Source: Marsupella aquatica (lineage: Eukaryota > Plantae > Marchantiophyta). From it: a DNA stretch of 64,000 nt. The notes below the pieces were generated by a model. That model did not search any database, was not told where the DNA came from, and saw nothing but the letters and a program-made list of their open reading frames with translations. The translations under genes and the position numbers were made by a program. This document shows positions 1,057 through 63,320 of this stretch, piece after piece. Position 1 is the stretch's first letter. Every line of letters begins with the position of its first letter. Where the stretch lies: the NCBI GenBank assembly GCA_973895155.1, contig OZ316897.1, positions 21,675,455-21,739,454 of the forward strand, written 5' to 3'.

Positions 1057-4000
1057 ATGGAACTGCTCAGACTTTGGGAGGAGGCGATGGCAGGACTCGT
1101 GCACCGGTTCAAGCCGATAATAATGCAGGGACTCTTCAGCGTGCCGGCACTGGGACTAGCGGTGGGATTGTTCGTATCGTGGGTGTGGCTGCATCGGTAT
1201 CGGCAGCGACACTACCTTGGACCCAAGACTTGGCCGATACTGGGATGCTTGGTTGAGCAAGCCCGGAACTTCGATGTGCTTCATGACTGGCTTCTTCAGT
1301 ACTTCCGGAGAGGGGTACTCACATTCCCCGTTCCCATGGTGAATATCAACAACACATTCACAGCCGACCCCAACAACGTGGAGCACATATTGAAATCCAA
1401 TTTCGTCAACTATCCAAAGGTAAATGGACAGTAATTGAGCTAGCCATAGCCGAGCTAGCTGAAGTTTCTTGCGTTCAAGGCAGTTCATGCACAGACTTTC
1501 GTCAATTTGAGGTCACTTATTCCTAGAAAGAAAAAGACTGTCGGAGGAGAAAACAGGCAGGTCTACGTACTTACAGGCGATTGTTCTTGCAATCTGGTCG
1601 TTGGAATTGAGCTCACTTAAACGAAAAAATGGAATGTATGCTCCACATTCATAAGCACTTTATGAGCGTTGACAATCTACATCTGGAGCAATTGCTGTCC
1701 AAAACTATCCTTCACTCTCTTCGCCAAGGACTTCGAAGTTTCATCATGGTCGTTGACTGGCTACAGTAGCTAAGGTGCAAGGTCTATGCATGCGGACACG
1801 TACAGCTGAGCGCTCGTCAAGAGACAACAATTTAGTAGTCATTTCTAATTGAATTCAATTGTTCCAAGTCCTCTTTAACAATTATGGGCAAGAGCCGAGT
1901 GAGTTTCATTTGTTTTATGGGTGTCTGGTGTCATCTCGTGAATGGCCTTAGTTAGCCATATATTGCAGGAATGATTCATTGTAGCAAGCAGCTAGCGCTC
2001 CGGAGTCATAATCAGCAGTTCTCTCACTTTACAGTGCCTCGCATTTATTAGAACCGCCATATGGATCACTCGATTGAATTCCAGTACATCATTCATCTCA
2101 CTTTTGCTACTTTCTTGTGGTGTCCCTTCCGGCCCTGCCAAATCCGTCTCTTGGAAAATTAGATTTCATCATTGAAGGATTAAAGTAATATGGTTTCTTT
2201 TGGTGTTCGTCAATATTCCATGTCCTATCTAACGGTGCAGGTGGGTTGGCTAAATTAACGGAGATTTGGTCGGGTGGTTCTTTGATTTGTCATCCACACA
2301 TGCAGGGGGAGAAAATACGGGAGCGGTTCATTGACTTGGTGGGGCTAGGAATCTTCAACGTAGATGGGGAAATGTGGAGGCATCAGCGCAAGGTAGTGAC
2401 AGTGGAATTTTCATCGTCCAAGCTCCGTGAGTACAGCATCCATACATTTCGAGAGGAGGCACTCAAGTTGGTGCAGGTCCTCGCAATCGCTTCCGCGCGT
2501 GGGCAACCTATCGACATGCAGGTAAGTCACTCTGCATACTTACATACATATGATAAATTACACCAGGCAGCTTCATTTAACTGTAATTGTTCGGACTGAG
2601 AGTAACAACTTACTCACATGTGCATGCTAAGCCCTTGGAATCAATCAAAACTAAGTGCTCTTGGAGTCTCGGGTCGAAGCCATGATGTTGTAACCTACTC
2701 AGCAGAGTTACAACAAGTATGGCCTCTTCTCGGGTAGTCACGCGGATCTGAGTGTCCCAAGCCAGAGCTCTAGTCCTTGAACTTACTGCTGCTGGAAGTG
2801 AAACAGTCATTTCGGACGTCCTTTGTATGTGTGGCATGCCACGAGGCCAACAGTGGACCTAGTCAGAGAAACCGATGAAAACTGTAAAAACCGCTTGAAC
2901 TGGAGATATGAATATCTTGGTCGAGTATGCCCTCTGCTGATGAAAGACTATAGATACCTGGCATCAGGATCATGAGAAAGGTCGATACCACTCTTTGTCA
3001 CCTCCATTGTGACTGGCTCTTAGCTTCAGTCATCGAAATCTATGTCCACTGGTGTCCCAAAGTCGATGTGGTCTGGGTGTTAAACCAACTAATTCATAGT
3101 TAGTTTATTCATTCTAAATTGTAATGCAGGATTGTTTCATGCGACTCACTCTAGATTCGATTTGCAAAGTCGGTTTCGGAGTCGACATAGGTTACTTGAC
3201 ACCAGAGCTTCCAGCTCTCCAATTTGCCACCGCCTTCGACGAAGGACAGCGTCTGATTATCAGGCGCTACATAGATGTGCTTTGGAAAATCAAGAGGGTC
3301 CTCAATATCGGCGACGAAGCGCAGCTGAAGAGCTGCATTAGTGTGATGGATACGTTCCTGTACGACATCATAGATAAACGTAGAAGCGAGTTTCAAGGAG
3401 ATCAAAGCAAACAGGTGTGTCCTACTTATGTACTCGAACACTTCTGCAGTTTCCTAAGCTCCCGTTCAAACTTTATCTGTTGATGCGCTCCCCGATCGTT
3501 GGTTTAAATGCGGTGACTTATAATTGCAAGTTATTTTATCTCCAGGGAGGGATGGACATTCTGTCACGTTTCATGTCGTTGAGCGACAGCGACGAGGCGT
3601 ATAGCGATGAGCGTTTACGTGATGTTCTGGTCAACTTCATCGTCGCTGGCAGAGACACGACGGCCCTCACTCTTTCGTGGTTCTTCTACGAGCTATGCAG
3701 AAACCCACAGGTGGTGGAAAACATAGTCTCCGAACTGAAGACTGTTCTGGAAGGAATTCCAGATGAGAATGACGATGTGCCCGATTTCGGGTCTCCCGGA
3801 TTTTTCGACAGAGTCGTCGAACTCGCAGATCAGCTCACTTACCAAAACTTGAGCAAGATGTATTATCTTCATGCTGCTCTTAGTGAAGCTCTTCGGCTCT
3901 ACCCAGCCGTGCCCCTGGTGAGTAAAGGCTAACTGTGTAATATTTTCAGCTTAAGTTTCGAGACCTTTCAATTCGTTGAAGGACTGTACTACTGTGTGCT

Positions 4001-29920: not shown

Positions 29921-31530
29921 ATGCCTCATGTTTCAAAGCGCCACATACAATTGAGGGAAGTCAGACATGAACTTCAACTAAACATTGCTTTGGAGTCTAT
30001 TGACTCTTCATCTGAGGCAGACTCACTTGACCTCTATGTGGGCTACCTGGAGGCAAAGGATCAGGGCAATTTGTCTATTTTGTCATCCTCAGCTGGTGAC
30101 TTCCATATGGACTCTACTTCAAATGAAGAGAACTCAGACATCTCAGACTTTATTCAGGACAACAAAGTTCCTACTTCACTGTTTGAACTTTACTTTTTAA
30201 TGTACAACACCAGGTTCTTTGTCCCAAGGCACATTACTAGCAAGTCGAATGAGTTTGTCACCCAATACTTCCACAACTTGCCTGGTACATTGTTCAGACA
30301 GCTTACCAGAATGGACAAGCCCACATTCTTTGGCCTGGTAGATAAAATTGAGCAGCATCCCATTTTTGAGAACCATTCTAACTATGGGCAAGCCCCCATC
30401 ATTACCCAATTAGCAGTATGTCTTGATAGACTAGGCCATGATGGTAATGGGGCCTGTATCAACCATTTGATTCCTACTTGGGGAGTTAGTTGTGGCTCCC
30501 TAGTGAATTTCAGCAAGCGATGTTTTACTGCCCTAGAGGCAGTGTTGTCTGACCAAATTGCTTGGCCAGACATGAATGAGAGAGTCACGATTTCGGAAGC
30601 TTTTGCAGCACACGGCTTCCCTGGCAGTGTTGTCTGACCAAATTGCTTGGCCAGACATGAATGAGAGAGTCACGATTTCGGAAGCTTTTGCAGCACACGG
30701 CTTCCCTGGATGTGTAGGTCTCATTGATGGGTCCCTCATGCCATTGACATAGCAACCAAAGCAAGATGGAGAATGCTACTATGATAGAAAGAGTCGCTAT
30801 TCTAATAACACTCAAGTGGTGTGTGACCACAGGTGGAAAATTATTTTCATGTTCTCAGGTACATCAATTTCTACACTCATACTATTACTGGATTGTATAT
30901 TGTCATTAATTATTACTTTAAAAGTAAGAGGACTCACAGACAATTGTGTGTGAAATTCTTCAGGAATGCCAGGGTCGTGTGGTGACCTCACAAGTATTAG
31001 GAGGTCTCCATTGTGGGCCTATTGTAACGAAGTGGTGCAATGTATTGTTCCGGGAAGGACAGTACTTATTGGGCGACTTTGGCTATCAGGCTGCTCCTCA
31101 TTTAGTATGTTCCTTTAAACGTGCTGATATTTCAGAGAACATAGAGGACTTCAACACTTGTATGGCAAAATACCATGTGACAAATGAACATTGTATTGGA
31201 GTCCTCAAGTCACGTTGGCATTCACTGAAAGAGGTTCGTGTGCAACTGAATCAAAAAAAAGATTCAATCTGGATGGTGAGATGGATATTAAGCCTTTGCT
31301 GTAAGCTGCACAACTATGTTATCAATCAGAATGATGAGTGGACCGAGCAGGACCAGATGGAGAACCAGGATTCAATGGAGGGCGTTGACCCTGTTGAGTA
31401 CGGAGGTCTTCCCAGGGCATCAAGGCGTGCAACATCACAGGCCGGAAATGCCCTTTTATTGCAAGTCATGGATTATGCTCATCAATTTAATAGGGCCCCA
31501 GGGCATATTTTGTGGACTGCCTCTGAGTGA
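29921..31530 (+). pseudogene. Harbinger DDE transposase (HARBI1-like), disrupted
   Basis: FRQLTRMDKPTF, GFPGCVGLIDGS, YYDRKSRYS..QVVCD, YLLGDFGY and EHCIGVLKSRW, with an intron at ~30859-30963. An 85-bp tandem duplication (~30539-30709) causes a frameshift, and there is an in-frame TAG at ~30750. Confidence 0.9.
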
Positions 31531-43171: not shown

Positions 43172-46100
43172 TCAAACTCTAGGTGAGCTATGGCAGACTA
43201 CACGCCAACCACGAGACTCCTCCACATCTAAAAAAAATACTTGCTCGACTTGACTTGGGAACACAAAAGGCTCCATCCATTCTGCCAGTCTTTGGTTAAA
43301 ATTGACCATTAGAAAGCCATCCATATCCCGTTTCATGGTCGCTCTTGGCCCATGCCAATCTGGCTTCACCCATGAACCTTTCATTAGGATGATTTGTTGT
43401 GATGTGTTCCCATAATTCAGTGCCCAGATGTCTGCCAACTCCCCAACATATCCCATCTCCATCCAGCCCCTGTTGCTCTGAGCATCTATATGCTCAAACA
43501 CAGATATTACCCCCGAATTATATGTCACTAAATGCTTGTCCTCATCATCATGCACACGGTACTGATTCCCATATGCTTTCATCCATTTATACCGCTGTAC
43601 AATACGTCTGGGAGGCATAGACAAGAGGAGAACATCTCTATCCATGTTTGGGTTCTGCCTGCTATGCTCTCGAATTGTTGTCCTGATCCACTCAAGAAAA
43701 GTTGCGAATGCCTGGTGATTTAACCCTAATTGGGCGGCCTTCTGCACATTGTATTCCCTGCATGATGATAATGAGAACAATTTCTCAATACAATGTACAT
43801 ATCCTACCAAAATGGATATGAATAAAGAAGGAATGCAGGGAGGGTGCGGAAACATGAGTACTCGATCACTGCCACCAAGGTTGCATCATGACTGTATTGT
43901 GTAAGACATATAAGTGTGCTGCATCACAAACTTCTGCAGACAATTGCAAGGAAGTAAAAGCGCCTTGAAGAACCTCTCCAGCCACCCCCTCTTCTTCCTC
44001 AGCATCCCACACCCTACTCCTAACACTGTCTACACCAGCCATGTACTCTGTAAGGAACCCCAAGGTCTCTTCTTGAATGTAACCGAGAGCCATGCTTGCT
44101 TCAGGCCTGTAATAAGTACGTACATGGCCTTTTAGCAACTTCATGTACCGTTCCATCGGATACATCCACCTTGTACTCACTGGGCCGTAGTGGCCCAGAT
44201 CTTCAACCGCATGGATGATCAAATGAGTCATGACATCAAAAAATGCTGGCGGGAAATAAATCTCCAAGTCACAAAGCACACGCACAGTATCTGCCTTTAA
44301 CTGAGGAAATGTTGTAGGGTCCCACACCTTCACACAAATACGACGAAAGATCTGACACAGTCTCAAAATGACATTGCAAACTGGTTTTTGCATCAATCCC
44401 CTCAGACATACTGGTAGAATGTCTTGCATCATAACATGGAAGTCATGAGTTTTCATGCTTCCCAACTTCTTCTTCCTTATATGCTTTGCAAAGGCTCCAG
44501 CGTACCTAGAGGGTACTCTGAATGAACTCAGCCTAGACAAAATTGTGTTCCACTCATTCTGGGTGCAAACATATGGAGCTTGGTACTTGAAAACCACACC
44601 CGGCCTATTCTGGGATTCTTGCAGCCAAAGTTGAGGACGAATGCCCTTCTCCTGAAGGTCCTTTCGTACTGCTGCAGTATCATTGTCCCCTGACAGAAAC
44701 TTCAAAAGACTTTCGCATACATTCTTCTCAATGTGCATTACATCAATGTTATGTTTGCTTGGCTCAAAATCCTGCACCCATGAAGTAAGCATGATTGCCA
44801 CAATTAGGTTCAGACACAAGAACTAAAAACTGTTGTGCATAGGATCTGAAGAGGTTCACTGAGTACAAGTGAATATGCAAATGTTACCTTCCAATACTCC
44901 AATGATGTGTCCATCATTGTGTGCCTTTTGATGCCATGAGTCTTTGCTGGGTCGTCTGGCACGTCTCTACAAGCACCATATTCATCATAAGACACCTTGT
45001 TCAATCCCCACTGCAGAAGTTGGTCTCTACTAACCAACACAGGAGACTCTCGAAGCTCCCTCTGGTTGTTGAAGCGGGCTATGTGGGATTGCCTGTGCCT
45101 GAAAGGGTGGTCGGCAGGAAGATATCGCCTGTGGCCCTGGAATTTGATACTGCCCAAGGAAATGGACCGTTCAGATGTAACATCTGGGCCACGTCGTGTG
45201 CAACCCAGATATCCCTTCCCTACCTGCCCAAATATCATGCTATGTCTAGGGTAGTTTGCTATTGAATTAACACACATTGCACGTAGGTTGAATGTCCTCG
45301 GTTACCAGGTCCACAAAGTGCATCAACTGTCATAACTCCATGTGTCCATAGAGTAACCCATTCCTCCACCGCAGGGGCCAACCAAACATCTATGTTTGCA
45401 CTTATAGCAGAGTTTAGGCTGGGAATCATAAGTAAGACACAAGATCACAAAAAAACGCTTGGTGGATATCCAAGGTGGGAGATTATAATTTATCAAAGTC
45501 ACTGGCCAGCAAGAATACACATGTTCTTGTCTCCAAAAGGATTAGCACCGTCAAGGCTTAGACCAAACCTCACATTTCTGCTCTCTGCTGCAAAGTTCGG
45601 CCACTTCTCATCTATGTACTTCCAGTGGTTGGAATCTCCAATGCGACGTTGCAAACCATCTGTACTCTTCTGATCAGAGGTCCAAGTCATCATCTTAGAA
45701 ATGGATGGACACCTATAGAGGCGCTGTAATCTTGGAATGAGAGGGAAATGCCGTAGGACCTTAGCAGGTTGAGTTGACTTCCCCACGTTCTTATATCTGT
45801 GCTTTCCGCAGATAGGGCAGGATAGGCAATCAACATATTCTTTTCTGAAAAGTACATGGCCATCTGGGCATGCATGGATGGACACATAATTCAAACCAAG
45901 TTTGCTCATCACCTTCTTTGCCTCATACATGTTCTTAGGAGCAATGTTTCCAACGGGTAGTACTGTCCTCTGTAGGAACATCAACAACTCTGTTACACAT
46001 ATGTTGGGCACACGGTGACATCCACATATATTGAGGAACATCACTATGAACCCTAGTTTGGAGCAATTTGCACCACCATACAATGGGGACGTAGCTTCCT

Positions 46101-46719
46101 CCAAGTAGGCCCCAGTTCCCAAGAATTAACCATCATCTCCAGCTCCTTCTCCAATGTCAAACTCTTCTTGGTCCGATGGATCTGCACCATGCATGTCTGG
46201 TTCTTCGTCCCCATGTGCCTCTACATCTTCATAAAGTGCATCCAGGTCTTGAAAAATGTCTGAAACCATCCTAGGAACATCTGCCCCGTCCTCATTAGAA
46301 GTCTTGGGACCTCCCTGTGGAACATACTCATCTTTGGCATTGTTGCCTGCATGACCAGTGACGTTATGAAAGAATGCAGAGCGTCTTGCTGTATTCACAT
46401 TTTCAAAATCTGCTCTCCATTCATCATCCGATGAATCCTCTTCCTCTGGCACATTCCACACCCTGCGGATTGGATGTCTTCCATGCCTTTGAAGATGAGA
46501 ATGCACTTGGTTCAGGGTCATCGAGTGGTATCCTCGACATTGCATGCAGGGGCATCTCATCCGGGCATTTATGCCCCGGCTTGCTCTAAGCACCTCTCTA
46601 TTCCACAACTTGGAGTCATGACGTGTAATTCTCAGTGGGTGATGCAAAGGGAGTCGCAGTTCATTGGTATGTCTCTGATTCCTTTGCCCCAACTGTCCAT
46701 CCTCATTTGCTTGATCCAT
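43172..46719 (-). pseudogene. Tnp2/TnpD CACTA transposase with stop and frameshifts
   Basis: MRCPCMQC, IHACPDGHVLFRKEY..C..CPICG..RY, KVLRHFPLIPRLQRLY, RNVRFGLSLDGANPF, SCWPV...YNLPPW, DVMHIEKNV, FFDVMTHLIIH, WMYPMERYM, EPFVFPSQVEQVFF. TAA at ~46126, frameshifts around 45300-45500, introns at ~44775-44888 and ~43762-43869. Confidence 0.93.
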
Positions 46720-47134: not shown

Positions 47135-48061
47135 TTATTCATAATCATTAGGGCTAACAGAATCATACGCACTATCAGAAAACTGTTCATCCGTGGTCTG
47201 GAACTCAGAAGTAACATATTCTGGGTCATCATAGGGAATGAATGGCTTTGCTGGCCATATTTCATATAAATCATATTTATGCTCATCTAATCGCATATTT
47301 GTTGAAAGTGACTGCCTGACCCATTCAAGGCAGACCACACACAGCCCATGTGTGATGAGCCATTGTACTGTGGACTTTCCATACTCTCGGCATGCCTTAG
47401 AATATGAATGAGCAATGAGATGGGTGGTCTCATTAGTGAGCTTCTCAATCACTGTACCACCTCTTCTACTGATCTCCCTCTTGAAATGACAGACCCTATA
47501 TGGCTTGATAGACTTGTCAAGTATAACAGCCCTCACACCTCTGAACATGGTTCGGTCTGGGATGGGTTCTGTCTCATATGGGATAATGTTGTTGTATACT
47601 TTTGTGATCTGGTCAATAGACGGAACCCTACTCCCACCTCTCCCTGCAATTCTACGAGCCTTGTGCCAACCTCGACTGTCTTTCATCATTTGGACGCTAT
47701 TGTACTTGCTCTCAAACAAATTGTAATCATCAGGATCTTGGACACTCCCTTTTCTAAGGCAGTCAGACATCCATTCTACTGAAAGTATTTTGACATGCCT
47801 CAAGAAGACTTTGTCATAGAAAACTGACCAAGATGCCATTTTCAGACAATGTTCCCATGTTTCTGCAATAATATGGGTGACTTCAGTGTCCTGTAGTTGA
47901 GATTGTGTCTCTGTACCGTGACACTCAATGAGTTTTCTCCTAAAGATATCCAATCTTGCACTCTGAATACCTGGGACAAAAAAGACTCTGACCCCTTGGA
48001 AGATGGGAGCACATTGGGAAGTTGGAAGGGGGACAGGTTCACGCTTCCGTTTGGAAGGCAT
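47135..48061 (-). CDS. Tandem BRCT-domain protein (both repeats DNA polymerase lambda-like), probable CACTA cargo
   Basis: Uninterrupted ~308-aa ORF with basic N-terminus MPSKRKREP. BRCT1: IFQGVRVFFV..IQSARLDIFRRKL...VTHIIA...LSVEWMSDCL...Y.L. BRCT2: MFRGVRAVIL...GGTVIEKLTNETTHLIA...VCLEWVRQSL...YDLY. Acidic tail. A splice acceptor (TTACAG) lies just before the ATG. Confidence 0.8.
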   Translation of the reverse strand: MPSKRKREPVPLPTSQCAPIFQGVRVFFVPGIQSARLDIFRRKLIECHGTETQSQLQDTEVTHIIAETWEHCLKMASWSVFYDKVFLRHVKILSVEWMSDCLRKGSVQDPDDYNLFESKYNSVQMMKDSRGWHKARRIAGRGGSRVPSIDQITKVYNNIIPYETEPIPDRTMFRGVRAVILDKSIKPYRVCHFKREISRRGGTVIEKLTNETTHLIAHSYSKACREYGKSTVQWLITHGLCVVCLEWVRQSLSTNMRLDEHKYDLYEIWPAKPFIPYDDPEYVTSEFQTTDEQFSDSAYDSVSPNDYE

Positions 48062-48976
48062 GATGCCTCCTGTAATAAAAGCCAATAGAGAAATACCAGT
48101 GCCCGCGTTGCCTGTCCCTCAATGCTTCAGCCCAATGCTCTCTGATGACACAAAGTGCACTCTAGCTCCCTGATTGTGGCCCACATGACAGGATCGAAAG
48201 TCAATACATGCAGTAAATCCCAGCACGGAGTTATAGGACAAACCATATACTCTTTAGTCAAATTATTTTCACCATGTGTTCATGTAATTACATTGATGAA
48301 AGTAGAGCAACAACCTACTTTAGTATACACATAGCATACATGTGACCCTTTATATTGTCTTGTCTGCATATAGCCTGAATTCACATTTGAATACCTGTAT
48401 CTTACGTGACAGTGATGGGGACTGAGAATGATATCATTCAACTGCACAATTTCCAGTCACATCTATAATTGTACAAATGTATGGGTCAGGCACACAACTT
48501 AAGATGACCTTTGTTAAGAGCAGAAACAAATACATAATTTGAGCTATATATGTATTTTCATACTCCAATGCATGGATGTTGTTTTACTCCAGGTAACAGT
48601 CTGCTTGGAATCTTTAGTCTTTCACAGTTATGGTCTCTTACCATACACATGATTCACTCAAAGTGGAAAAAACACAGACATCCTTGTACGTGTAGGCCCT
48701 AACTTTGAAATTGCAATTAACTTAATCAGTCTTCAAAAAATAAGTTAACTTAGTTAGTTTTGGAGTGTTGAGCATAGACGACATTCGCAACGGCAAGCCC
48801 ATGAACCATCCAACGCACAATAGTCGACACAGAGAGATACGTGGTTCACCTCCACATGAGGCTACGTCCGCGGGAACACACAAGAGCTTTACTGCACTCT
48901 AGGCCGACCGGCCATACCAAGCATCCACAGCACAAGCTCTCCCTATCTCTCAACTAACTCCGTAACAATGAGCCTG

Positions 48977-51777: not shown

Positions 51778-54700
51778 CTACAACTGCAAAACCTGCAAAG
51801 TAGCACGGTGTCTTGAGAAACTCTCCAAAGGAATCACTTTGGTAAAGGCATCAGCGGGATTGAGCTTTCCATCAATCTTGACTAGCTCAAAAGTTTTATC
51901 AGACACTGCTTGCCTGATAAAATGGTACCTGATATCAATGTGCTTCACCTTGCTATCCATCACCTGGTTAGCAGCCAAGTGAAGAGCACTCTAACTATCA
52001 CAGTTTAGAGTCATTTTTCCATGTTCTAAACCCATCTCCGCGATCAACTTATCCAACCAAATTGCTTCCTTTGCAGCTTCTGCTGCTGCAACATACTCTA
52101 CTTCTGTAGTAGACTGAGATATGCACTTTTGCAAGGTAGATTTCCAACTGATACATCCTCCTCCAAGAGTGTATACAAACCCAGTTGTAGATCTCCTTGT
52201 ATCCAGACAGCCTCCATAGTCAGAATCTACATAGCCAACTAACGTTCTATTTGATCTATTATCAAATAGTAATCCATAGTCCTGTGTTCCCTTCACATAC
52301 CTGAGAATCCATTTCACAGCTTCCCAATGTAGCTTCCCTGGATTTGACATGAATCTGCTAACCTTGCCCATCGCTAGGGCCAAGTCAGGCCTAGTACAAG
52401 TCATCAAATACATCAGACTGCCTACTGCCTTCTCATAAGGAATCTTAGCCATCAGACCTTTCTCCACAGCATCCGTAGGAGAGAAAGCCGATGATAACTT
52501 GAAATGTGAAGCTAAAGGAATACTCACTGGCTTACAGTTCTCCATGTTGAATCGTGCAAGTACTTTCCTCGCATACTAGCCTTGACTCAAGCACAACTGT
52601 CCAGTCTCAGAGTTCCTAAAAATCTCCATCCCTAAGATCCTCTTGGCCTTACCAAGATCCTTCATCCTGAATTCAACGCTCAATTTCGCCTTGAGACTGT
52701 CAACCTCAGATTGATCTTTAGCCACAATTAGCATGTCATCCACATAGATCACCAGAATGATGAAACCAAATACATCATTCTTTACTGATTTCGCATACAC
52801 ACAAGGATCATACACCATCCTTGTGAAACCTTGAGCAAGCATGAAATCATCAAACTGTTTATTCCATTGTCTGGGAGACTGCTTCAATCCATACAAGGAT
52901 TTGAGCAATCTGCAAACTAAGTTCTCTTGGCCCTTCTTCATAAAGCCTAGTGGCTGTCTCATGAAGATCATCTCTTCCAAGTTGCCATAGAGAAAAGCAG
53001 TAACAACATCCATCTGATCCATCACCAGATTAAAAAATACAACAAGCTGACACAAGATCCAAATTGTGGAATACTTAGCCACCGGTGAAAAGACCTCATT
53101 GTAATCCACTCCTTTCTCCTGAGTGAACCCCTTGGCAACAAGCCTTGCCTTGTAGATCTTATCTCCACCCTCTGAAGGACTGTCCTTCAACTTGTAAATC
53201 CACTTGCTGTCCACCACTTGTTGACCTCTTGGAAGCTCCACCAGCTCCCATGTCTTGTTGTCACTCAAAGATTGCAACTCCCTCTGCATTGCTGCATTCC
53301 ACTCATGCTTTTGTTCTGAAGCACAAGCCTCACTATACGAAGAAGGCTCTCCTTCTTCCAAGATCAAAGCCATATCATCTTCATTAGGTGTAATGTCAAT
53401 ATCATCTAGCTTAGATGAGTCTGCCCATTGACCATACCTGGTAGGAGCTCTAGTAGAACGACTGGAAGTTCTTCTAGTAGATGACTCAGGCTGATTTGTT
53501 GCTGCTGTTGGTTGAATTTGAGGTACCCCAGCAACAATTTACTCCTCTTGTTCCATCACAGGAACCAGCTCCAAGCCCGGAGCTTCTCCATCTCTCCTGT
53601 CATGAATTGCATCATGACTAATCTCCCCCTCAACCCGGTCCGGGATGGGAGATTTCCCCTTGTCAGTATGGGAGTCCTGAGAACTCTCCCCCTCCTTTGA
53701 TGATCTGGATTCATTAAAGGACACATCTCTACTGACAATTAGCTTACAGGTTATTGGATCCCATAACCTATAATCCTTCACACCTTTCTGATAACCAAGG
53801 AAAATACACTTCTTCGACTTGGACTCCAGCTTGGATCGAAGCTGGGAAGGTGTAAGCACATAAGCATCACATCCAAAAATCCTCAGATGTGAGTAATCTG
53901 CTAGACGCCCGTACCTCATTTCAAATGGCGTCTTGAATCCAATAGAACTGGATCGAGAAAAATTTACCAAATAAGCTACAGTGTTGACAGCTTCAGCCCA
54001 AAACTCATGTGGTAAGCATGATTGACTCAACATACTTCTCGAGTGGTCCAATAGTGTTCGGTTGAGTCTCTCAGAAACACCATTCTGCTGAGGAGTATAG
54101 CTTGTTGTGAGATGGGGGGTAATCCCCTGCTCCTTACAATACATTCCAAATTCACCGGAACTGTATTCACCACCATTATCCGATCGAAGATATCTCACCT
54201 TATTACCAGTCTGATTTTCAACTTGGGCTTTCCACTCCTTAAAAGTGGCAAAAACATCAGACTCATTGTGTAGAAAGTATATCCACACATACCTTGAGTA
54301 ATCGTCAATGAACGTGACATAGTATAACCGTCCAGAATGTGAGGGAGTAGGGGCGGGACCCCACACATCACTATGTACATACTCAAGTACCTCCTTGCTG
54401 GTGTGAGTTCCAACTCCGAAGGGTTTCCTGTGCTGCTTCCCTAGCACACAGTGCTCACAAAATTCCAACTTACAAGATTGCAAATTAGAAAGTAATCCTT
54501 TCTTCTGAAGAATAACCAAACCTTTTTCACTCATGTGGCCCAAACGGAAGTGCCACAGCCGGGCCGTCTCCTCGTGAGATAAGGTTACATTGGCTTCATC
54601 ATAGATTACACTGCCCTCCATAACGTATAGATTGCAATGTCTCTTTCCCTTCAATACAATTTTAGTACCAGTTGAAACCTGAAGGACACCATTAGCAGAA

Positions 54701-56060
54701 CTCCACTGATGGCCATTTGCCTCTAAAACTCCAAGTGAAATGAGATTTTTCATCATGCTGGGAATATGTCTCACATTCCTCAATGTTCTCACAGCACCAT
54801 CAAACATCTGAAATCTTACAGATCCAAGTCCAACAACTTGACATGGGATTCCATTTCCCATCAACACTGACCCGTTGGAAACCGTGTAAGAACTGAAACA
54901 ATCTCTTCTAGAGCAAATGTGAAAAGTACATGCACTATCTAGAATCCAGTCATCACTACCTGGATTTGACACTATGTTGAGAGCATAACCTTGACATCAC
55001 AATATGTCATCATCATCGAGTAAATCTACCTCATGCGAGCTCGATGCTGCGTTAGTAGAGGCAGTAGGGACCTTTACTCGACAATCCCTTTTCATGTGGC
55101 CTGGCTTGCCACAATTCCAACATGCAAGAGGCTTCCTTTCTTGCGATTTTCCTCTGGATTTAGATCTCCCCGTGATGTAGATCTAAACCTGTTCTGCCCA
55201 TTCGTGCGCTGTGTTGCTCTTCCCTTGTTCACATTGAGCGCAGTGCCAGAAGAAGATGATGTCTGTGATTGACCCAACTTCTTCTGAGCATCATCAGATA
55301 GTAAAGAGCTTACCACCTCATTATACGAAATGGACTTCAGATCTCTATACAAGAGCACCTGTTTCAAGCCCTGATATGATGGTGGTAAGGAGCTTAGCAG
55401 AAGCAAGGCCTTATCCTCATCTTCAACTCTTTTTCCCAGGTTTGACAGATCAACCGCTAGACTGTCAAACTCATCCAGGTGATCCTGCATCTTGCTCCCT
55501 TCCTTGAGCCTGAGGCTCATCAAGAGAGACTTCTTGTACAGCCGATCTGATGCATCTTCCCGATAGTACTTCTCTCTTAGAGCTTTGAATAGTGACGCGC
55601 AATGTGCATAATCATCCAGTTGCTTGATGATGTGCGGCTTGAGATATAGCATCACTGCATTGACAGCAATCACCTGCTCCTGTCTCCATTGCCTCACTGA
55701 AATCTCCTCCTCTCCATCATATTGCTCTCGCGATGAAAGCAGATGAGCTAAGCCCATGGCCCGTAGAACACCCTTCACTTGCTTCTCCCAGAGCAAGTAA
55801 TCACTACGACCATCGTACTTCTCCACCTCAAACTTCACTCCTCCAAATCTAGCCATCTCCCTCTTCTTCCCTACTACCGACAGCTCTGGTAGTAACACAG
55901 CTTCATCCACTGCACGCCGCACCGGTGATCGTACCGGTGTTATAAGTTCCTCCTCAAACGGTAGCAACTCCTCCTCAGACTCTCCCTCTGACCGTCGCGA
56001 TCCTGAAGCTCCACCGACGCCAATTCTTCCAGTATCCTCCGAGTCACTCATATGAAACAA
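51778..56060 (-). pseudogene. Copia gag-pol polyprotein, disrupted
   Basis: Gag KFEVEKYDG, protease WILDSACTFH, LWHFRLGH, integrase VHSDVWG/LRSDNGGEY/QQNGVSER, RT YKARLVAKG/QMDV/YVDD, RNase H GYVDSDY..D, KHIDIRYHFIR. Stops at ~52576 and ~51991 and a frameshift at ~55110. Confidence 0.95.
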
Positions 56061-56669: not shown

Positions 56670-58623
56670 CGTTCTATAGGATCTGGATTCCTCACTTTGC
56701 ACATATTGCTGATCCTTTGTACGGATTATTGAGGAAGAATGCGCACTTTATTTGGACAGAGGCACATAAGGAGGCTATGCAAAGGTTAAAGGAGGCCTTA
56801 CTTAGCCTCCTTGTTTTACGTCCCTTATGCTATGATGGAAGACCCATCATTGTCACTGTAGATTCAAGTCCTGATGCTGCTGGATGGGCGGTAGGGCAGG
56901 ATGATGAGGAGGGGAGAAGATTTGCAGCAAGGTTTGGAGCTAAGATCTTTTCAGCAAGGCAAAGGCATTACCCTCAAATCAAGCGAGAGTTGTGGGGAGC
57001 AAGGATAGCCTTGTGTCAAGAAAAAGTCTACTTGATTGGAGCACAAGTCATTCTTGAGATTGATTGTTTACCACTTTTAGGGATGATTGCTAACTGTGAT
57101 ACTCCAGACATTGCTATGCTACGTGGATAGCTTTTATTAGGATGATCAACCCCGAGCTTCGACACATTGCTGGAAAAGATAATTCAGTAGCAGATATGCT
57201 TTCAAGAGCCCGCTATGATCAGAATGAAGTGGAGGCAGTTCAAGTGATGAATGGAGAGTTTGAGGTCTTAACATTTCGAGAGAAGCTCTATTCTGGAGAG
57301 TTGCTCTTGATTGGAAGGTACCTTAGTACTCTTCAAAGGCCTGTTGAAATGATAGAAGAGAAGTTTCAACAATTACGGAAGAAGGCTTACAAGTTCATGC
57401 TCAAGGATGGTGTTTTATGGAGAAGGTCTTTGAAGAAAGGACATGTTCCTTGTAGAGTTCTTGATACAGATGAAGAGAAGAAGAGAGTCTTATGGGATTC
57501 TCATGATGTTGTTGAAGCAGGACATCGAGGAGTTAGAGCTACCTATGAGTGGGTTCAAAGGTGGTACTGGTGGTCAGGCATGTATGTGGATGTAAAATCC
57601 TATGTTGGATCTTGTGAAAGTTGTCAGTATTACTCTAAAGTTCGGTTTAGAGATGGACTTAATCCCACTAGTCCTCTTTCTTTACATTTTCAATGGGCAG
57701 TAGATGTGGTGCACATGCCACGGGGAATAAGGGGGGCAAAGTATCTTGTCCTTGCAAGAGAAGATTTATCTTCTTATGTTGAAGGAAGGGCTTTAACCGC
57801 TAACACTACAGAAGCAGTATGCAGGTTCATACTTGAAGACGTTATAGCACGTCATGGTTGTTTTGTGCAAATGAGAGCAGATAGAGGAGAGCTGAATTCT
57901 GAAGAGGCTGCAGAATTTTTCGACCGGTTCAACATCAAGCTTAAACTCACTACTGCCTACAACCCAGAAGGAAATGGAAAGATTGAGCGAGGGCACCCAC
58001 CGATAGTGAATGCCTTGGTAAAATCTTGTCGAGGAAAACCATCGCTTTGGCCCAATCTTCTACCATTTGCTCTTTTGGCAGATCGAATGACATGCACTAC
58101 CACAACAAGAATTACGCCTGCCGAATTAGTCTCTGGACATTTGCCTTTGATGCTGATTGAGGAAAATGTTCAGAGTTGGAGGATGATTGAATGGCAAGAT
58201 AGAATCTCCCGAGAAAAGTTGCTGGAGCGAAGGATTGAGCACTTTAGCCAGACCAAGGAGAAGATTGAGGAGGCGTTACTAAGGCTAAAGGAGGCTCGTG
58301 AGAAGAATAAGGAACGATTTGACAAGACCCATCGTTTGAGACCAATTCCCATCCAGAATGGAGATTGGGTCTTGATCTATGAGGGAGGGTTGGAACAGCA
58401 ACATTCTACTCTAAAGAAGTTTGTACGTCGTTGGAGAGGACCATTTGTGGTGGAGGAGGTTCGTCCTAATGCAACATATGTGGTAAGAGAACTTGATGGA
58501 GCAATTCATCGTAATCCCTATGCAGGGAAGCGAGTGAAATTGTTTAAACGACGAACTCGATTTGTGACAGAGAAAGAATTTGAACCCGACGACTATGAGG
58601 CTTTAGATGAAGAAGACATGTAA
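56670..58623 (+). pseudogene. Ty3/gypsy pol 3' part (RT connection, RNase H, integrase), 5'-truncated, 1-nt frameshift at ~57123
   Basis: FYRIWIPHFAHIADPLY.LLRK, IVTVDSS, H.AGKDN.VADMLSR, integrase HHCC (H....GH...C..C), AVDVVHM, ADRGE, YNPEGNGKIER, and GPY/F motif WRGPFVV. Confidence 0.93.
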
Positions 58624-58676: not shown

Positions 58677-59815
58677 TGTCGTGATTTTCTCTTAAGTTAT
58701 AAAAAATTGTTTGTTTTAATATGCTATAGATTATATAAGTAATTTAGTAGTTAGATTATTAAATTTAAACTTTATTAAACTTCTTTAGCTATATTAACGG
58801 ACTATAGAAGTTCCACCAATGCATGTGAGTAGTTCCACCAACTACAATAATATTCACCAACGCATAGTGGTTCTACCAACGCACAGTAGTTCTACCAGCG
58901 CATAGTAGTTCTACCAACGCATAGTAGGTCCACCAACGCATAGTAATTCCACCAACGCATGGTAGTTCCACCTACTAAAAGTAGTTTCACCAACTATGAA
59001 TAGTACTAGCACACTCTTAGGTATTAGATGTTTGACACTTGGCCTTCATCCAAGTGCTTGGGCTTGATCCATGCCCTCTTGGTGTGCACTATAAATAAAG
59101 TGGTGAGGGGCACTCTCCCCTCATTCCGCAGTGTTTATCATTCAAGGTTGTGAAGCTCTTTTGTGCCTTGAACATAGTAGTGGGGCGTCCTTTGGCCCGG
59201 ATAGCAAAGGAATGAGTGGTAGACTTATAGATGGGACCTTAGGGAATAAGGTTTCTTTGGGAATATAGGGGTGGGGTGTCCTTTGGCCCGGATAGCAAAG
59301 GAATAGGAGAGTCATCATGAATCCAAGAGAGAGAGTTATCCCTGATCTTCCCCTTCGTAATCCGTTTTTGATTAGAGTCCATCTTTTAGACAAACCATCT
59401 ATAAGGCAACATCTAACCCATCATTTTGGAGCTCAGTTTGCAACTGCGGTTATGGTTTCTAACGAGCCAATAATATACCCAGTGGTGTCGTACCGAGAGG
59501 AGTGGGAGTGCATCATCTTTGTCCTTTATTGAAGTCATGGATCTGAATAGGAGTCCGGATGATATTCCTGTTTCATTTTCTCTTGGAGATATTAGAATCA
59601 TATGTCGTAAGAAAACTAATTTTCGTGATGTGTTGGTCCGCAAGTATGGTGAAGTAGGGTTTAACAGTATTTTAATTTCACCTGAACCTTTCTTAATACC
59701 CACTACCCTTGTTACTAAAATTATCATTTTGATTTTAGTGTAGAACTTATGAGCATGCAAGGTTAACTTCAAAAGAGCCAACATGCTCTTGCCAGAAAAT
59801 ACGGTCACCCGGACA
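58677..59815 (+). mobile_element. Gypsy LTR (~1.14 kb)
   Basis: Follows the purine tract GGTAGGGGTGA. Termini TGTC...GACA. ~20-bp TTCyACCAACGCATAGTAG repeats at 58810-59000. TATA CTATAAATAAAG at ~59089. Followed by PBS-like TGGCAACCATACTGGGGA at 59820. Homology with the inverted copy at 62647 ends exactly at this CA. Confidence 0.82.
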
Positions 59816-59960
59816 TAAGTGGCAACCATACTGGGGAACCGCTGGATTTGGAAGTTAGCTTGTGCATGTTTGAGTTCTAATGGATGAAGAGAGATATGGT
59901 TTTGGAACTTTGAGTTCTTAACTTGTTTATATTATTAAGTCAAGAGGGAAGAATTGCAAT

Positions 59961-60445
59961 CATGGGAACTGAGATGAATCCAACTGACATGGAGAGGTTT
60001 TCATCATTGATTGCTGCTTACTTACATGGAATGAAGGAGAAGGAGATGGAGGAGAACAAGAAGGAGTTGCTTGGTAGGACCACGAAGTACCTACACTCGG
60101 TTCTTACCAAGCAAGGAGAATTTGATGGGCGAAATGTAACCAAGTATCTCAAGGGGTACTGGACGGAGGCTACAATTCATAAGATTGATGCAGAAGTTGC
60201 AGTCAAGGAGTTTGTATCTTTAGTAGAACCTGAACTCAAGGGAATTGTTACTACCTTGATAGATGGAGCTACTGGGGAGAAAGCATGGAAGGTCTTTGAG
60301 TTGAAGATGAAAGAAGAATTTCAGTTTGAAGATCCAGATCGGGTTACTCAAGCATCTTTCCTTGATTGGGTGGCCGATAGAAGCAAGAAGTTGGGACCTC
60401 AAGAAGTGGAACTGATAAGGGAGTTTACGAAGAAGTTCTTCACGG
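59961..60445 (+). pseudogene. Gypsy gag N-terminal fragment
   Basis: Downstream of the LTR and PBS. GEFDGRNVTKYLKGY...W..FELKMKEEF is gag-like. The ORF ends abruptly at a junction near 60445. Confidence 0.7.
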
Positions 60446-60549
60446 ACGTCTATCGTCGATGAGATTTGGAAGAAGGACCTTTACACCGAGGAGAAACTCG
60501 TTCGGAATAGGTGGTACTTTAGGGATGCCCGGGCGATGGATAAAACTTG

Positions 60550-61180
60550 TAATGCAGGTGTAGAGGCTGGAATTTGGGAAAAGCCAAATGTACATGCTCA
60601 TCCTTCAGGGAATCGATTAGCTTGGGCTTTTGAAAATTGGTCAATCGGATATTATCACGAGAGTGGTATTAGGACCAGAGACATGTACAATTTTGAACAT
60701 GATGAGAAAAGGGTAAACATCATAAAAGTCCCTTGTGTTACAAAGAAATGTGTAACACCATTGGGGGAAATAGTGAACCCTTACCAGAAGCCGATAGCTC
60801 TAGCAGATTGGTTCATTCAATATTTTAGTGAAGCCGGGGATTGGGTTGCTGATTTATGTGCGGGGAGTGGTTCGACCTCATGCGCTGCCTTGTTAGGGAA
60901 ACGTCCGGTGACAGCCGTGGAGCTCAGTTCAAGCCAGGTGGATTGTATCCAGACTCGACTTGTCACGCTGGATGAATCGTGGGACTTGAATGATGAAGCA
61001 ACAGAGGAGGGTACAGGACCCATGAGCTTCGAGGTTCAACCACCTATTGGTGGTATTACGAGCACCCTGACCACTGGAACTTGCATCATTACAACCGCGG
61101 AGGAGAACGACAATGATGAGGATGAAGAGGATGAAGTTGAACATGAAGCTCCGGCACTTGATCTTGGCTCATTCCTTGAG
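60550..61180 (+). pseudogene. Beta-class N4-cytosine/N6-adenine DNA methyltransferase (N6_N4_Mtase), C-terminal two-thirds
   Basis: GIWEKPN..SGNRLAWAFENW, motif X NPYQKPIAL (60776-), GDWVADLCAGSGSTSCAA (motif I, 60851-60877), then VTAVELS...I..RL and an acidic tail. Catalytic motif IV (DPPY/SPPY) is absent; it would lie upstream, where a gag junction now sits. Confidence 0.8.
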
Positions 61181-61298
61181 GTGTAGACTTTAGTTTCATT
61201 AGTTCTCTCATGTTGTATCGATTGATCCAAACTTGTGAAATATTGAGGAAGATTATGATTGGACTATGTTCTTATTTCACAAAGTAATGTCTTTGCAG

Positions 61299-61526
61299 GA
61301 ACCAAAGGAGGATTTTGTATTGAAACATGTTCTACATAGATTCTCACACAATCCTTCTAGTGGGTTTCTTTTGGACAATAAAATATTGAGCCAACTTGAA
61401 CCCGATCAATATTTGGGTGATGAAATAATGGAATTTTATCCACAATTAATAACCGAGGAACATGGAGATCTGGCTCCCCCAGTAAACACATTATCCTCCA
61501 AGTTCTCGGCAATATATTGTTATTAG
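61299..61526 (+). pseudogene. Ulp1/SENP (peptidase C48)-like N-terminal exon, truncated
   Basis: ILSQLEPDQYLGDEIMEFY..LI........V..LSSKF matches the start of the C48 fold (L..L.p..wL.DevInFY...ffsSfF). Preceded by acceptor TTTGCAG (ending 61298). The catalytic His-Asp-Cys region is missing. Confidence 0.62.
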
Positions 61527-61529
61527 GTC

Positions 61530-61990
61530 ATGGCAAATTGCAAATAGATTTGATAATAGGGCATTGTTTGCCTTGTGTTTTGCCTAAAGATTCATCAATG
61601 CTAAGATAGTAGAGAGTCTATTCAAACGAGCACCCCCATAAATAGGTGTTCTAGCATGTGCCTTCGCTTCTTCCCATTGTTGTTGACCCTCTGATGTATG
61701 TTGAGGTTGGGGATCATATGCAGCATTTGGTGGAGGAGCTCCTTCATTGGGTGGTCCATGTCCTTCACCATCAACGTCCACACCAAACCAATCTTTCATG
61801 ATGTCATCCATGGCTATCTCCTGGTCCTACATGATCTCATAATCTGTCCTAGGTGCCCTTTCATCCAAACCCTCAATGTCACTGTCACTGATAATGATAT
61901 GAATTTATTATAATAGGTTTAAATGCCATAGACACTTACAATTTTCAGTTTAGTCCAAGACAATCTTGCTCCCCTCCATGCAAAGAACCC
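61530..61990 (-). pseudogene. Third CACTA Tnp2 N-terminal remnant
   Basis: CKCLW..., then EEAKAHARTPIYGGARLNRLSTILALMNL, parallel to EEATSPLYGGANCSKLGFIVMFLNI in the Tnp2 at ~46100. Confidence 0.7.
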
Positions 61991-62646
61991 AATCCCTGGG
62001 GAATCACTCGTTGGATTATTAGAACAGGGTGCGAACAAATGAAGGTTATTTTTAATCTTGTTAAAGTAATAATTATAATCAAAAATTTATACTAAAGGCA
62101 TTTAAAAATCCAATTTTGGTAAAAAAATTAGTTTTTATGTTCATGAAGGTATTTAAGAATTGTCAAAGTCATGTTATAAATGGTGTGAGATAAGGATGTT
62201 TATGAAGGAAGGGTTAACTAGCCATAAATTTGACTACTTCCTGAAATTGTTAGTATCGAAAATTTTTCTATTTAATTATGATTTGCAAACTTATGATGAA
62301 ACATCTAAAACAATATACCGAAATAATTTTTTTTCAGGATATAGATATCTAAAGAAAGCTAAGAGATGGAAAATACTCTATGATGCTAAGATATGGACAT
62401 TGTTATCCTCTATGTTGGAAACACGATATGCAATGGACTTGCTACCTAGAGGAATGAAAGAAAGTATTAAGAAATTAAGAAAATATCAACATAGTTTTGT
62501 TGAATTTCAAAAACAACATTTCAATACTTTCTTAATACCACGGTTGCAAAAAAATGGAGGTATTAAAATATTTGGGAAACATAATGAAGAAAATTGTAAG
62601 TCCTATGATGAGACATATTTGATATCAAGTTACATGAAAAAACCAC

Positions 62647-63320
62647 TGTCCGAGTGACCGTGTTTTTTGGTAAAAGCATGTTGGCTCTTATGAAGTCAAC
62701 CTTTCTTGCCCATAAGTTCTACACTAAAACCAAAATGATAACTCTTGTAAAAAGGGTGGTGGGTATTAAGAAAGGTTCAGGTGAAACTAATATACTATTA
62801 AATTCTACTTCACCATACTTACGGATCAACATATCTTGAAAACTAATTTTTTCACGACATACAATCCTAATATCTCCAAGAGAAAATGAAATAGGAATGT
62901 CATCTGGACTTCTATTTAGATCCATGACTTCAATAAAGGACAAAGATAATACATTCCCACTCCTCTCGGTAAGACACCACTGGGTACACTATTGGCTCAT
63001 TAGAACTCATAACAGCAATTGTAAATTGAGCTCCAAAGTGATAAGTTAAATGTTGTCTCATGGATGGCTTGTCTAAAAGATGGACTCTAACCAAAAATGG
63101 GTTACGAAAAGGAAGATTAGGGATATCTCTCACTTCTAAATTCATAATGATTTTCTTGTTCCTTTGCTATCCGGGCCAAATGATGTCTCACTACTATGTA
63201 CATAAGGCAAATAATAGAAGAGAAAGATGAGAGAAGACAAGAAAAGAAAATCGCTTTGAAGCAAAAATTATCAAAATGTGGGAATGAGGAGAGAGTGTCC
63301 CTCACCATTTTATTTATATT
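62647..63320 (-). mobile_element. Partial gypsy LTR, inverted, same family as 58677-59815
   Basis: Its reverse complement matches ~59089-59815 (TATA region to the terminal GGACA). The ORF track shows near-identical spurious peptides MSFIEVMDLNRSPDDIP in both copies. Confidence 0.88.

What the first reader, a model, noticed from the sequence alone, without database searches (positions are those of the whole stretch)
60550..61526. Prokaryote-type N4C/N6A DNA methyltransferase apparently spliced to a Ulp1 SUMO-protease exon, beside a CACTA transposase remnant
Seen: an ORF with beta-class amino-methyltransferase motifs (IWxKPN, NPYQKP, DLCAGSGST, AVE) and an acidic linker. A phase-0 GT donor at 61181 and a phase-0 AG acceptor at 61298 join it in frame to LSQLEPDQYLGDEIMEFY, the start of a C48 peptidase. 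A convergent CACTA Tnp2 remnant follows immediately. Known: Ulp1-like proteases are common cargo of plant CACTA and MULE elements, and bacterial-derived 4mC methyltransferases occur in only a few eukaryotes (Marchantia DN4MT1, bdelloid N4CMT). Inference: a DNA-transposon family encodes an MTase-deSUMOylase fusion that might mark its own DNA with 4mC/6mA and counter SUMO-dependent silencing. It could also be a vehicle by which 4mC enzymes spread in plants. This copy is truncated at both ends and probably dead.
Basis: partly seen in the sequence, partly recalled or inferred. Interest (0 to 1): 0.85.

Follow-up and report, generated by a model that had tools for sequence, protein, structure and literature searches.

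The report
Plant transposon methylase with SUMO-protease exon
This is a broken piece of a repeated plant gene, likely carried by a jumping gene, in which a bacterial-type DNA methyltransferase is followed by a SUMO-protease exon that is likely spliced to it; intact relatives are predicted to put a methyl-adenine mark on their own DNA to resist silencing, a design already proposed for algal transposons.

Summary
60542-61186 is the 3' half of a beta-class amino-methyltransferase (PF01555 above cut-off); 61299-61498 is the start of a Ulp1/C48 domain (61-71% identical to two PF02902 proteins). In public runs of this organism or close kin, one high-depth contig runs from the MTase into the C48 exon and beyond, so that pairing is not peculiar to this copy.

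(1) Relatives carry D-x-P-Y, not SPPY: 6mA is likelier than 4mC, and this is not DN4MT1 or N4CMT. (2) Relatives are ParB-fold + MTase genes with palindromes in non-coding DNA, tail-to-tail with a DUF7869 transposase-like gene. The CACTA link rests on one break at 61498 in a four-piece mosaic. (3) The TAG at 61184 is the family's ancestral stop; none of 178 relatives carries C48; no RNA was available. The splice sites are better than chance, but the fusion is about even odds.

ParB-MTase accessory genes are published for algal transposons, and Ulp1 capture for plant MULE/CACTA. This scan already noted ParB-MTase-Ulp1 elements elsewhere in this genome. New variant of a known kind; this copy is dead.

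The parts
59914..60438 (+). Flank: gag-like ORF of an LTR element, cut at 60438
   Evidence: ORF, no Pfam hit, gag label recalled from position after LTR; X1, X2 contigs continue with other letters behind 60438; X4 contig of 1078 nt leaves here
60437..60542 (.). Flank: about 105-nt piece of a third, unidentified repeat; it supplies the first 41 codons of the stop-to-stop ORF, which are not MTase
   Evidence: Loose ends before 60437 (X2, X4) and behind 60542 (X1, X4); no Pfam hit
60542..61186 (+). 3' half of a beta-class N6/N4 DNA methyltransferase exon: SAM-binding half, acidic tail, terminal D-h-x-x-h-L motif and TAG; catalytic motif IV missing in this copy
   Evidence: PF01555; 58-62% identity to 13 proteins; alignment A1; other copies continue upstream of 60537-60542
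61181..61298 (+). Candidate 118-nt phase-0 intron; the donor overlaps the last codon, so retention would end the protein at the ancestral stop
   Evidence: Sequence and composition; shuffles; splicing itself inferred
61299..61498 (+). First 200 nt of a Ulp1/C48 protease exon; breaks before the catalytic His, Asp and Cys
   Evidence: 61-71% identity to PF02902 proteins; X3 and X4 contigs match to 61498, and the X4 contig goes on with letters that read as the next C48 motif
61499..61865 (-). Decayed N-terminal piece of a probable CACTA Tnp2 gene (one stop, one frameshift); membership in the same element not shown
   Evidence: 32% over 38 aa to the window's PF02992 gene; frames; loose ends at 61525-61528 and 61865

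Best explanation
This is a doubly truncated, dead piece of a repeated gene, likely the accessory gene of a plant cut-and-paste transposon, whose intact form likely joins a ParB-fold DNA-binding domain to a beta-class methyltransferase and, in this lineage, a Ulp1 protease exon likely spliced on at the last codon. Mechanism, by step. (1) Shown in relatives: ParB-like exon, phase-0 intron, MTase exon with D-[IV]-P-Y, family-specific palindromes in non-coding DNA, convergent transposase-like gene. (2) Inferred: the ParB domain binds the element's own palindromes and the MTase writes N6-methyladenine there. (3) Inferred: the captured Ulp1 domain strips SUMO from silencing factors at the same place, as an add-on like the Ulp1 on VANC/KIU. 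(4) Inferred: because the donor overlaps the last codon, intron retention gives the ancestral MTase-only protein and splicing gives the longer one. My odds: MTase-C48 linkage beyond this copy 0.9; ParB upstream in this family 0.85; 6mA over 4mC 0.8; in-frame splice at 61181 0.5; CACTA as host 0.35; self-marking function 0.5.
For: PF01555 above cut-off. The model of full-length relative P0005 matches CcrM Z 19.4 (rmsd 3.5, 212 aligned) and M.MboIIa Z 19.0. The upstream exon of L005 matches ParB/Noc: best Foldseek E 2.7e-4, and the 15 best rows shown are ParB, Noc, Spo0J, KorB or PadC; HTH_ParB E 8.6e-4, below cut-off. A profile of that exon hits 23 of 186 fetched proteins, among them Chara, Ginkgo, Riccia and Adiantum records. 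Palindromes: 15 in L005 and 6 in L002, against 0 in 200 shuffles each. A convergent ORF ends 323-476 nt behind the MTase in 3 of the 6 close loci; DUF7869 confirmed for the two scanned, L001 and L006. One X4 contig (945 nt, depth 242.5; two identical-match contigs in that run have depth 11.2) covers 60971-61498 with 15 changes and no gap, and has 417 more letters beyond. A second X4 contig matches to 61187 and again from 61392. The eighth residue of the terminal motif is D, E or N in 22 of 22 relatives printed; it is V here unspliced and would be E if spliced. Precedent: Sola1-1_Ec32 (PMC12477816, passages); VANC with Ulp1 (PMC13317346, passages).
Against: The TAG lies at the ancestral end: 11 of 22 relatives printed stop at exactly that position and 9 more within four residues; five loci checked have TAG there. 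No C48 in any of 178 MTase-search proteins or in the six frames of 9 loci, nor in 30 long hits by Pfam. A search for longer C48 relatives gave 3 distant flowering-plant proteins with PF02902 only, among 5763 candidates. The donor's intron side (GTGTAG) is a weak match to the recalled plant consensus. The ParB exon, motif IV, the catalytic triad and any repeated palindrome are absent from the window piece, so steps 1-2 rest on relatives 58-67% identical. P0179 and P0180 hold His and Asp but end before the Cys. No biochemical activity is shown for any member.
Confidence: 0.55

Rival explanations
1. Same element, but no MTase-Ulp1 fusion: the MTase exon ends at its ancestral stop and the Ulp1 exon is an alternative last exon spliced to the ParB exon (skipping the MTase), or an unused captured fragment.
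For: Ancestral stop kept. The ParB-to-MTase intron of relatives reads as phase 0 at donors in L002, L003, L005 and acceptors in L001-L005, the same phase as the acceptor at 61298. X3 contigs diverge right behind the stop at 61187, as a 3' UTR would. No fused protein found.
Against: AG|GT exactly in the last codon has shuffle chance 0.006, and it replaces a D/E/N found in 22 of 22 relatives. Divergence behind 61187 fits an intron equally well.
Confidence: 0.3
2. One reading: one CACTA element with an internal deletion, encoding a 4mC writer related to DN4MT1 that spread 4mC enzymes in plants.
For: The Tnp2-like piece is tail-to-tail with the MTase gene, as the transposase-like gene is in relatives. 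CACTA elements with ULP domains are published (PMC2528002, passages). Adineta N4CMT is among the fold matches, Z 17.7, and the top sequence hit in the PDB at E 0.004, level with the 6mA enzyme RsrI at 0.007.
Against: Motif IV begins with S in 1 of 112 domains, whereas DN4MT1 has TSPPY (bioRxiv 2021.02.12.428880, passages) and N4CMT has SPPY (PMC8885841; PMC10406627). The window is a mosaic with breaks at 60438, 60542 and 61498; the first two join unrelated repeats. No listed contig bridges 61498 (32 pieces shown, 930 not shown). No CACTA end lies between the Tnp2 piece and the next LTR. Fold Z-scores do not separate 6mA from 4mC enzymes cleanly.
Confidence: 0.1
3. The MTase fold in this subfamily is inactive or passive cargo; the protein only binds the element, or the pairing has no function.
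For: This copy lacks motif IV and the triad. About a sixth of relatives carry altered motif IV variants. No activity data exist.
Against: Most relatives keep D-x-P-Y and the SAM motif. Of 14 variant sites shown in the MTase, 8 are synonymous, 1 restores the family His and 5 change the residue, 4 of these in one X1 contig that also has a frameshift (most rows were not shown, so this is weak).
Confidence: 0.15
4. Bacterial contamination or a chimeric assembly.
For: Prokaryote-type domain; three breaks within 1.1 kb.
Against: No relative in prokaryote genomes or viral contigs by pattern scan (0 of 20 and 0 of 58 candidates). Named relatives are Chara, Riccia, Adiantum and Ginkgo. Relatives have GT-AG introns. 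The piece is repeated in four runs that also hold the flanks.
Confidence: 0.03

Closest known systems
Sola1-1_Ec32 accessory protein of Ectocarpus (PMC12477816; passages, supplement table rows; FASTA supplements not seen)
   Same: ParB-like domain plus N4C/N6A methyltransferase, on the strand opposite the transposase, proposed to bind and modify its own element. Its transposase's best hit is listed as Sola1-1_PPa_tp.
   Different: Brown alga; 'Ulp1' and 'SUMO' have 0 occurrences in the main text. Sequence homology to our family was not tested.
Plavaka accessory genes PAG2 and PAG3 of red algae (bioRxiv 2025.02.11.637652; passages)
   Same: PF01555 methylase and a ParB-like protein with inverted-repeat arrays, moving between transposon superfamilies including EnSpm-type Plavaka.
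   Different: The methylase is fused to SET and the ParB to a 2OG oxygenase, in separate genes; 'Ulp1' and 'SUMO' have 0 occurrences.
VANDAL VANC/KIU with captured Ulp1 (PMC13317346; review passages)
   Same: Self-targeting anti-silencing accessory protein recognising motifs in its own non-coding DNA, in some families extended by a Ulp1 domain of unknown function.
   Different: Non-TIR MULEs of flowering plants; VANC causes loss of 5mC and is not described as a methyltransferase or ParB fold.
Marchantia DN4MT1 and bdelloid N4CMT (passages)
   Same: Beta-class prokaryote-type amino-MTase fold in a eukaryote.
   Different: Host genes with SPPY and shown 4mC activity; ours has D-x-P-Y, is repeated and travels with ParB. 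17-18% identity to N4CMT in structural alignment. DN4MT1 was not available for a tree.
CACTA-ULP and MULE-ULP elements (PMC2528002; passages)
   Same: Ulp1/C48 domain captured by a plant DNA transposon.
   Different: No methyltransferase in the passages read.

Membership tests
Beta-class N6A/N4C DNA methyltransferases (PF01555) | Pfam hit above gathering score | tested here: met
   32.5 bits vs 26.7
Beta-class N6A/N4C DNA methyltransferases (PF01555) | Motif IV before motif I, beta-class fold | tested here: met
   In relatives: DIPY precedes DLCCGTG; fold Z 19.4 to CcrM. Motif IV is deleted in the window copy.
Beta-class N6A/N4C DNA methyltransferases (PF01555) | Methyl transfer to DNA and target base | not testable with these tools
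   Needs an assay
Eukaryotic 4mC writers (DN4MT1, N4CMT) | SPPY catalytic motif | tested here: not met
   S first in 1 of 112 filled domains (SIPF), D first in 105
Eukaryotic 4mC writers (DN4MT1, N4CMT) | One clade with DN4MT1 or N4CMT | not tested
   Neither sequence was in the tree
Ulp1/C48 peptidase (PF02902) | Homology to the domain | tested here: met
   61-71% to P0179/P0180, which pass the cut-off; the window piece alone has no hit
Ulp1/C48 peptidase (PF02902) | His-Asp-Cys triad | tested here: inconclusive
   His and Asp in P0179/P0180, Cys beyond their ends; none in the window
ParB + amino-MTase transposon accessory genes (Sola1-1_Ec32 type) | ParB-like domain in the same gene | tested here: met
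   In relatives L001-L005 and 23 proteins; outside the window fragment
ParB + amino-MTase transposon accessory genes (Sola1-1_Ec32 type) | Opposite strand to a transposase inside terminal repeats | tested here: inconclusive
   Convergent DUF7869-type ORF in 3 of 6 close loci; contigs too short for ends; that DUF7869 is a Sola-type transposase is recalled from its motifs, not shown (0 papers hold the term)
ParB + amino-MTase transposon accessory genes (Sola1-1_Ec32 type) | Own palindromes in the element | tested here: met
   L002-L005; no repeated one in the window piece
CACTA/EnSpm element | CACTA ends, 3-bp target duplication, Tnp2 in the same element | tested here: inconclusive
   No end motif right of the Tnp2 piece before 62647; junction 61498 not bridged by listed contigs
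Spliced MTase-Ulp1 fusion | Transcripts joining 61180 to 61299 | not testable with these tools
   No RNA holder listed

The most novel reading that the evidence does not exclude
An active land-plant transposon family makes a ParB-guided adenine methyltransferase that gained a SUMO protease through a new splice donor in its last codon, and switches by intron retention between a writer-only and a writer-plus-deSUMOylase form. It would be a self-targeted 6mA system in plants that reached the same Ulp1 add-on as VANC/KIU independently.
Probability: 0.25. Interest if true: 0.8.

Novelty: new variant of a known kind. Interest (0 to 1): 0.5.

Why it matters
Whether land plants have real, enzyme-written 6mA in DNA, and why plant transposons keep capturing Ulp1, are open questions (the first from my own knowledge; the second stated in PMC13317346). 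A streptophyte-wide ParB-MTase family with its own palindromes gives a named enzyme and a predicted target for long-read tests. A subfamily with and relatives without Ulp1 gives a natural comparison for what Ulp1 adds. The general design is already proposed for algae, this scan has noted it repeatedly in this genome, and this copy is the least complete kind of example, so the locus adds mainly the last-codon donor and the read evidence for linkage.

Tried and rejected
No whole genome is held for the window, so full-length copies and element ends could not be sought. No RNA holder listed. The four runs laid are contigs of unrecorded kind, hold at most 42% of the sampled words, and show no joint 61180-61299 (3 joints listed); this says nothing on splicing. 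Summed depth is higher over the Tnp2 piece than over the C48 exon in all four runs, but the tool warns it is no copy number, so it is not used as evidence. Pfam gave nothing for the C48 piece, the Tnp2 piece, gag, the 105-nt piece or the ORF at 62157. ESM Atlas: Tnp2 piece 0.75, uninformative; DUF7869 region returned only DUF7869 or unnamed clusters. Scans of viral and prokaryote contigs found no relative; these use two exact peptide patterns and miss distant kin. The tree is the quick search, 75 rows restricted to domains covering the window's half, with one long-branch bacterial-like outgroup; it places the window in a 28-row clade (SH-aLRT 98) with unnamed metagenome proteins, nearest P0030 (67%), and says nothing on donor or order of events. 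The wide fold search of the ParB model gave Z only 5-6, though its top four rows are ParB-family. Paper searches: Ulp1+CACTA+methyltransferase+transposon, 3 papers, none on topic by listing; N6_N4_Mtase+transposon+ParB+plant, none of the 20 listed holds the first term; transposon-encoded+adenine methyltransferase+DNA transposon+bryophyte, 4 listed; Sola+Physcomitrella+methyltransferase, 3 listed, not read; VANC+Ulp1+anti-silencing, 1. None showed an MTase-Ulp1 fusion. The library lacks most subscription journals, Repbase and the Cell 2025 DN4MT1 paper; Iyer 2011, cited as precedent in PMC12477816, was not read. Iyer 2016 (PMC4738411, section 8 and passages) describes no such plant transposon clade in the parts read. 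Sequence look-ups in earlier findings returned nothing, so the notes on other pieces of this genome may concern other subfamilies.

Full report
Observation. The stop-to-stop ORF 60419-61186 holds the stated motifs and passes the PF01555 cut-off. Only 60542-61186 is MTase. In four public runs that share up to 42% of the stretch's words, contigs leave the window at 60438 (gag-like ORF goes on elsewhere), enter at 60437 and leave at 60542 (a third repeat), and enter at 60537-60542 with letters that read as more MTase. The copy therefore lacks catalytic motif IV and is dead. The locus is a mosaic of four repeat pieces with breaks at 60438, 60542 and 61498.

The MTase family. A search for longer relatives gave 13 proteins of 282-398 aa at 58-62% identity. 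A profile search gave 1809 hits at E 0.001, of which 150 were listed. Of 18 of these hits looked up, the named ones are from Chara braunii (5), Ginkgo, Riccia sorocarpa and Adiantum nelumboides. Motif IV was filled in 112 of 191 aligned domains: DIPY 49, DVPY 10, DPPY 10, DAPY 9; D first in 105, S first in 1. The model of P0005 (mean pLDDT 56.7, core mostly 70-95) matches beta-class enzymes: CcrM Z 19.4, M.MboIIa 19.0, N4CMT 17.7, PvuII 17.2. DN4MT1 and N4CMT have SPPY. D-x-P-Y points to N6-adenine, but PMC8885841 notes that this domain has switched specificity repeatedly, so 4mC is not excluded.

Context in relatives. The metagenome scan gave 9 loci from 145 candidates; six (63-79% identity) share one contig-name prefix, so they are not independent samples. 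In L001-L005 an upstream exon encodes a protein whose model (pLDDT 66) matches ParB, Noc and KorB. The intron to the MTase exon reads as phase 0. Palindromes recur mostly outside these two exons: 15 copies of one in L005 and 6 of another in L002, against none in shuffles; the L002 type recurs in L003 and L004, and no exact repeat was found in L001 or L006. In L001, L004 and L006 a convergent ORF ends 323-476 nt behind the MTase; L001 and L006 hit DUF7869. I take DUF7869 for a Sola-like transposase from recalled motifs; no call showed it. None of the nine loci has a C48 match.

The Ulp1 exon. 61299-61496 is 71% and 61% identical to two Logan proteins with PF02902, which keep His and Asp and end before the Cys. 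One X4 contig of 945 nt covers 60971-61498 without a gap and continues for 417 nt; its next letters, read in frame by eye, give the S-F-F-Y motif that P0179 has at that place. Its depth is 242.5 where two identical-match contigs in that run have 11.2, which suggests roughly twenty copies. A second X4 contig (depth 19.4) matches to 61187 and again from 61392, and three X3 contigs diverge behind 61187. So the order MTase, spacer, C48 is kept in at least two subfamilies while the spacer drifts. Chance adjacency is rejected for this pair.

Is it a fusion? For: a near-perfect in-frame acceptor (shuffle chance 0.0045), an AG|GT in the very last codon (0.006; 0.37 anywhere in the tail), a T-rich 118-nt spacer, and too little room for a separate gene (inference). 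The GT replaces a D/E/N present in 22 of 22 relatives printed, and splicing would put E there. P0180 starts M-Q-D near the same place, which would fit the same acceptor (inference from codons). Against: the stop is ancestral, no fusion was found among 178 MTase-search proteins or in a search for longer C48 relatives, two in-frame ATGs lie in the spacer, and skipping from the ParB exon is phase-compatible. I put the splice at 0.5.

Is it CACTA? The minus-strand piece resembles the N-terminus of the window's own Tnp2 gene weakly. Its tail-to-tail position fits an internal deletion of one element, and CACTA-ULP elements are known. But two of the three breaks join unrelated repeats, no listed contig bridges the third, no CACTA end lies nearby, and relatives go with DUF7869. 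I put CACTA at 0.35.

Known systems. [quoted passage not shown] The red-algal PAG2/PAG3 cassette is similar. Ulp1 has been added to the self-targeting VANC protein in KIU elements. My searches showed no MTase-Ulp1 pairing or land-plant ParB-MTase element by listing or passage; supplements other than five files of PMC12477816 were not seen. The leads to the algal papers and the palindrome reading came from earlier scan notes. Those notes report ParB-MTase elements, several with Ulp1, on other pieces of this genome; I could not check those loci.

Verdict. Real, repeated, dead fragment of a likely transposon ParB-MTase gene with a lineage-specific Ulp1 exon. New variant of a known kind; interest 0.5.

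Noticed in passing
window 47138-48118 (-), next to 43175-46125 (-): An ORF with BRCT domains lies just upstream of a decayed CACTA gene (PF02992, DUF4218, DUF4216) on the same strand: possible BRCT cargo.
   Followed up: no
window 62157-62654 (+): 166-codon AT-rich open frame without a Pfam hit, in a low-depth stretch between the Tnp2 piece and an inverted LTR.
   Followed up: partly
window 59252-59815 and 62647-63210: Inverted pair, 84% alike, of the same probable LTR family flanking the mosaic; recombination between them may explain the breaks.
   Followed up: partly
window 58828-59017: 19-nt tandem repeat inside the probable LTR behind a gypsy-type integrase at 57100-58623.
   Followed up: no
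P0032 (Chara braunii GBG86584.1): One annotated protein holds two ParB-like + MTase units in tandem; may be a merged gene model.
   Followed up: no
L002-L005, non-coding parts: Subfamilies differ in palindrome: CGAGAC-N2-GTCTCG in L002-L004, CCGAT-N6-ATCGG in L005, a handle for testing ParB-site co-evolution.
   Followed up: partly
L002 403-1779 (+), L005 138-1235 (+): A further unannotated exon upstream of the ParB exon, without Pfam hit.
   Followed up: no
window 3384-3929, 30928-31527, 51994-56060: P450 piece, DDE_Tnp_4 piece and a copia-type element; ordinary.
   Followed up: no
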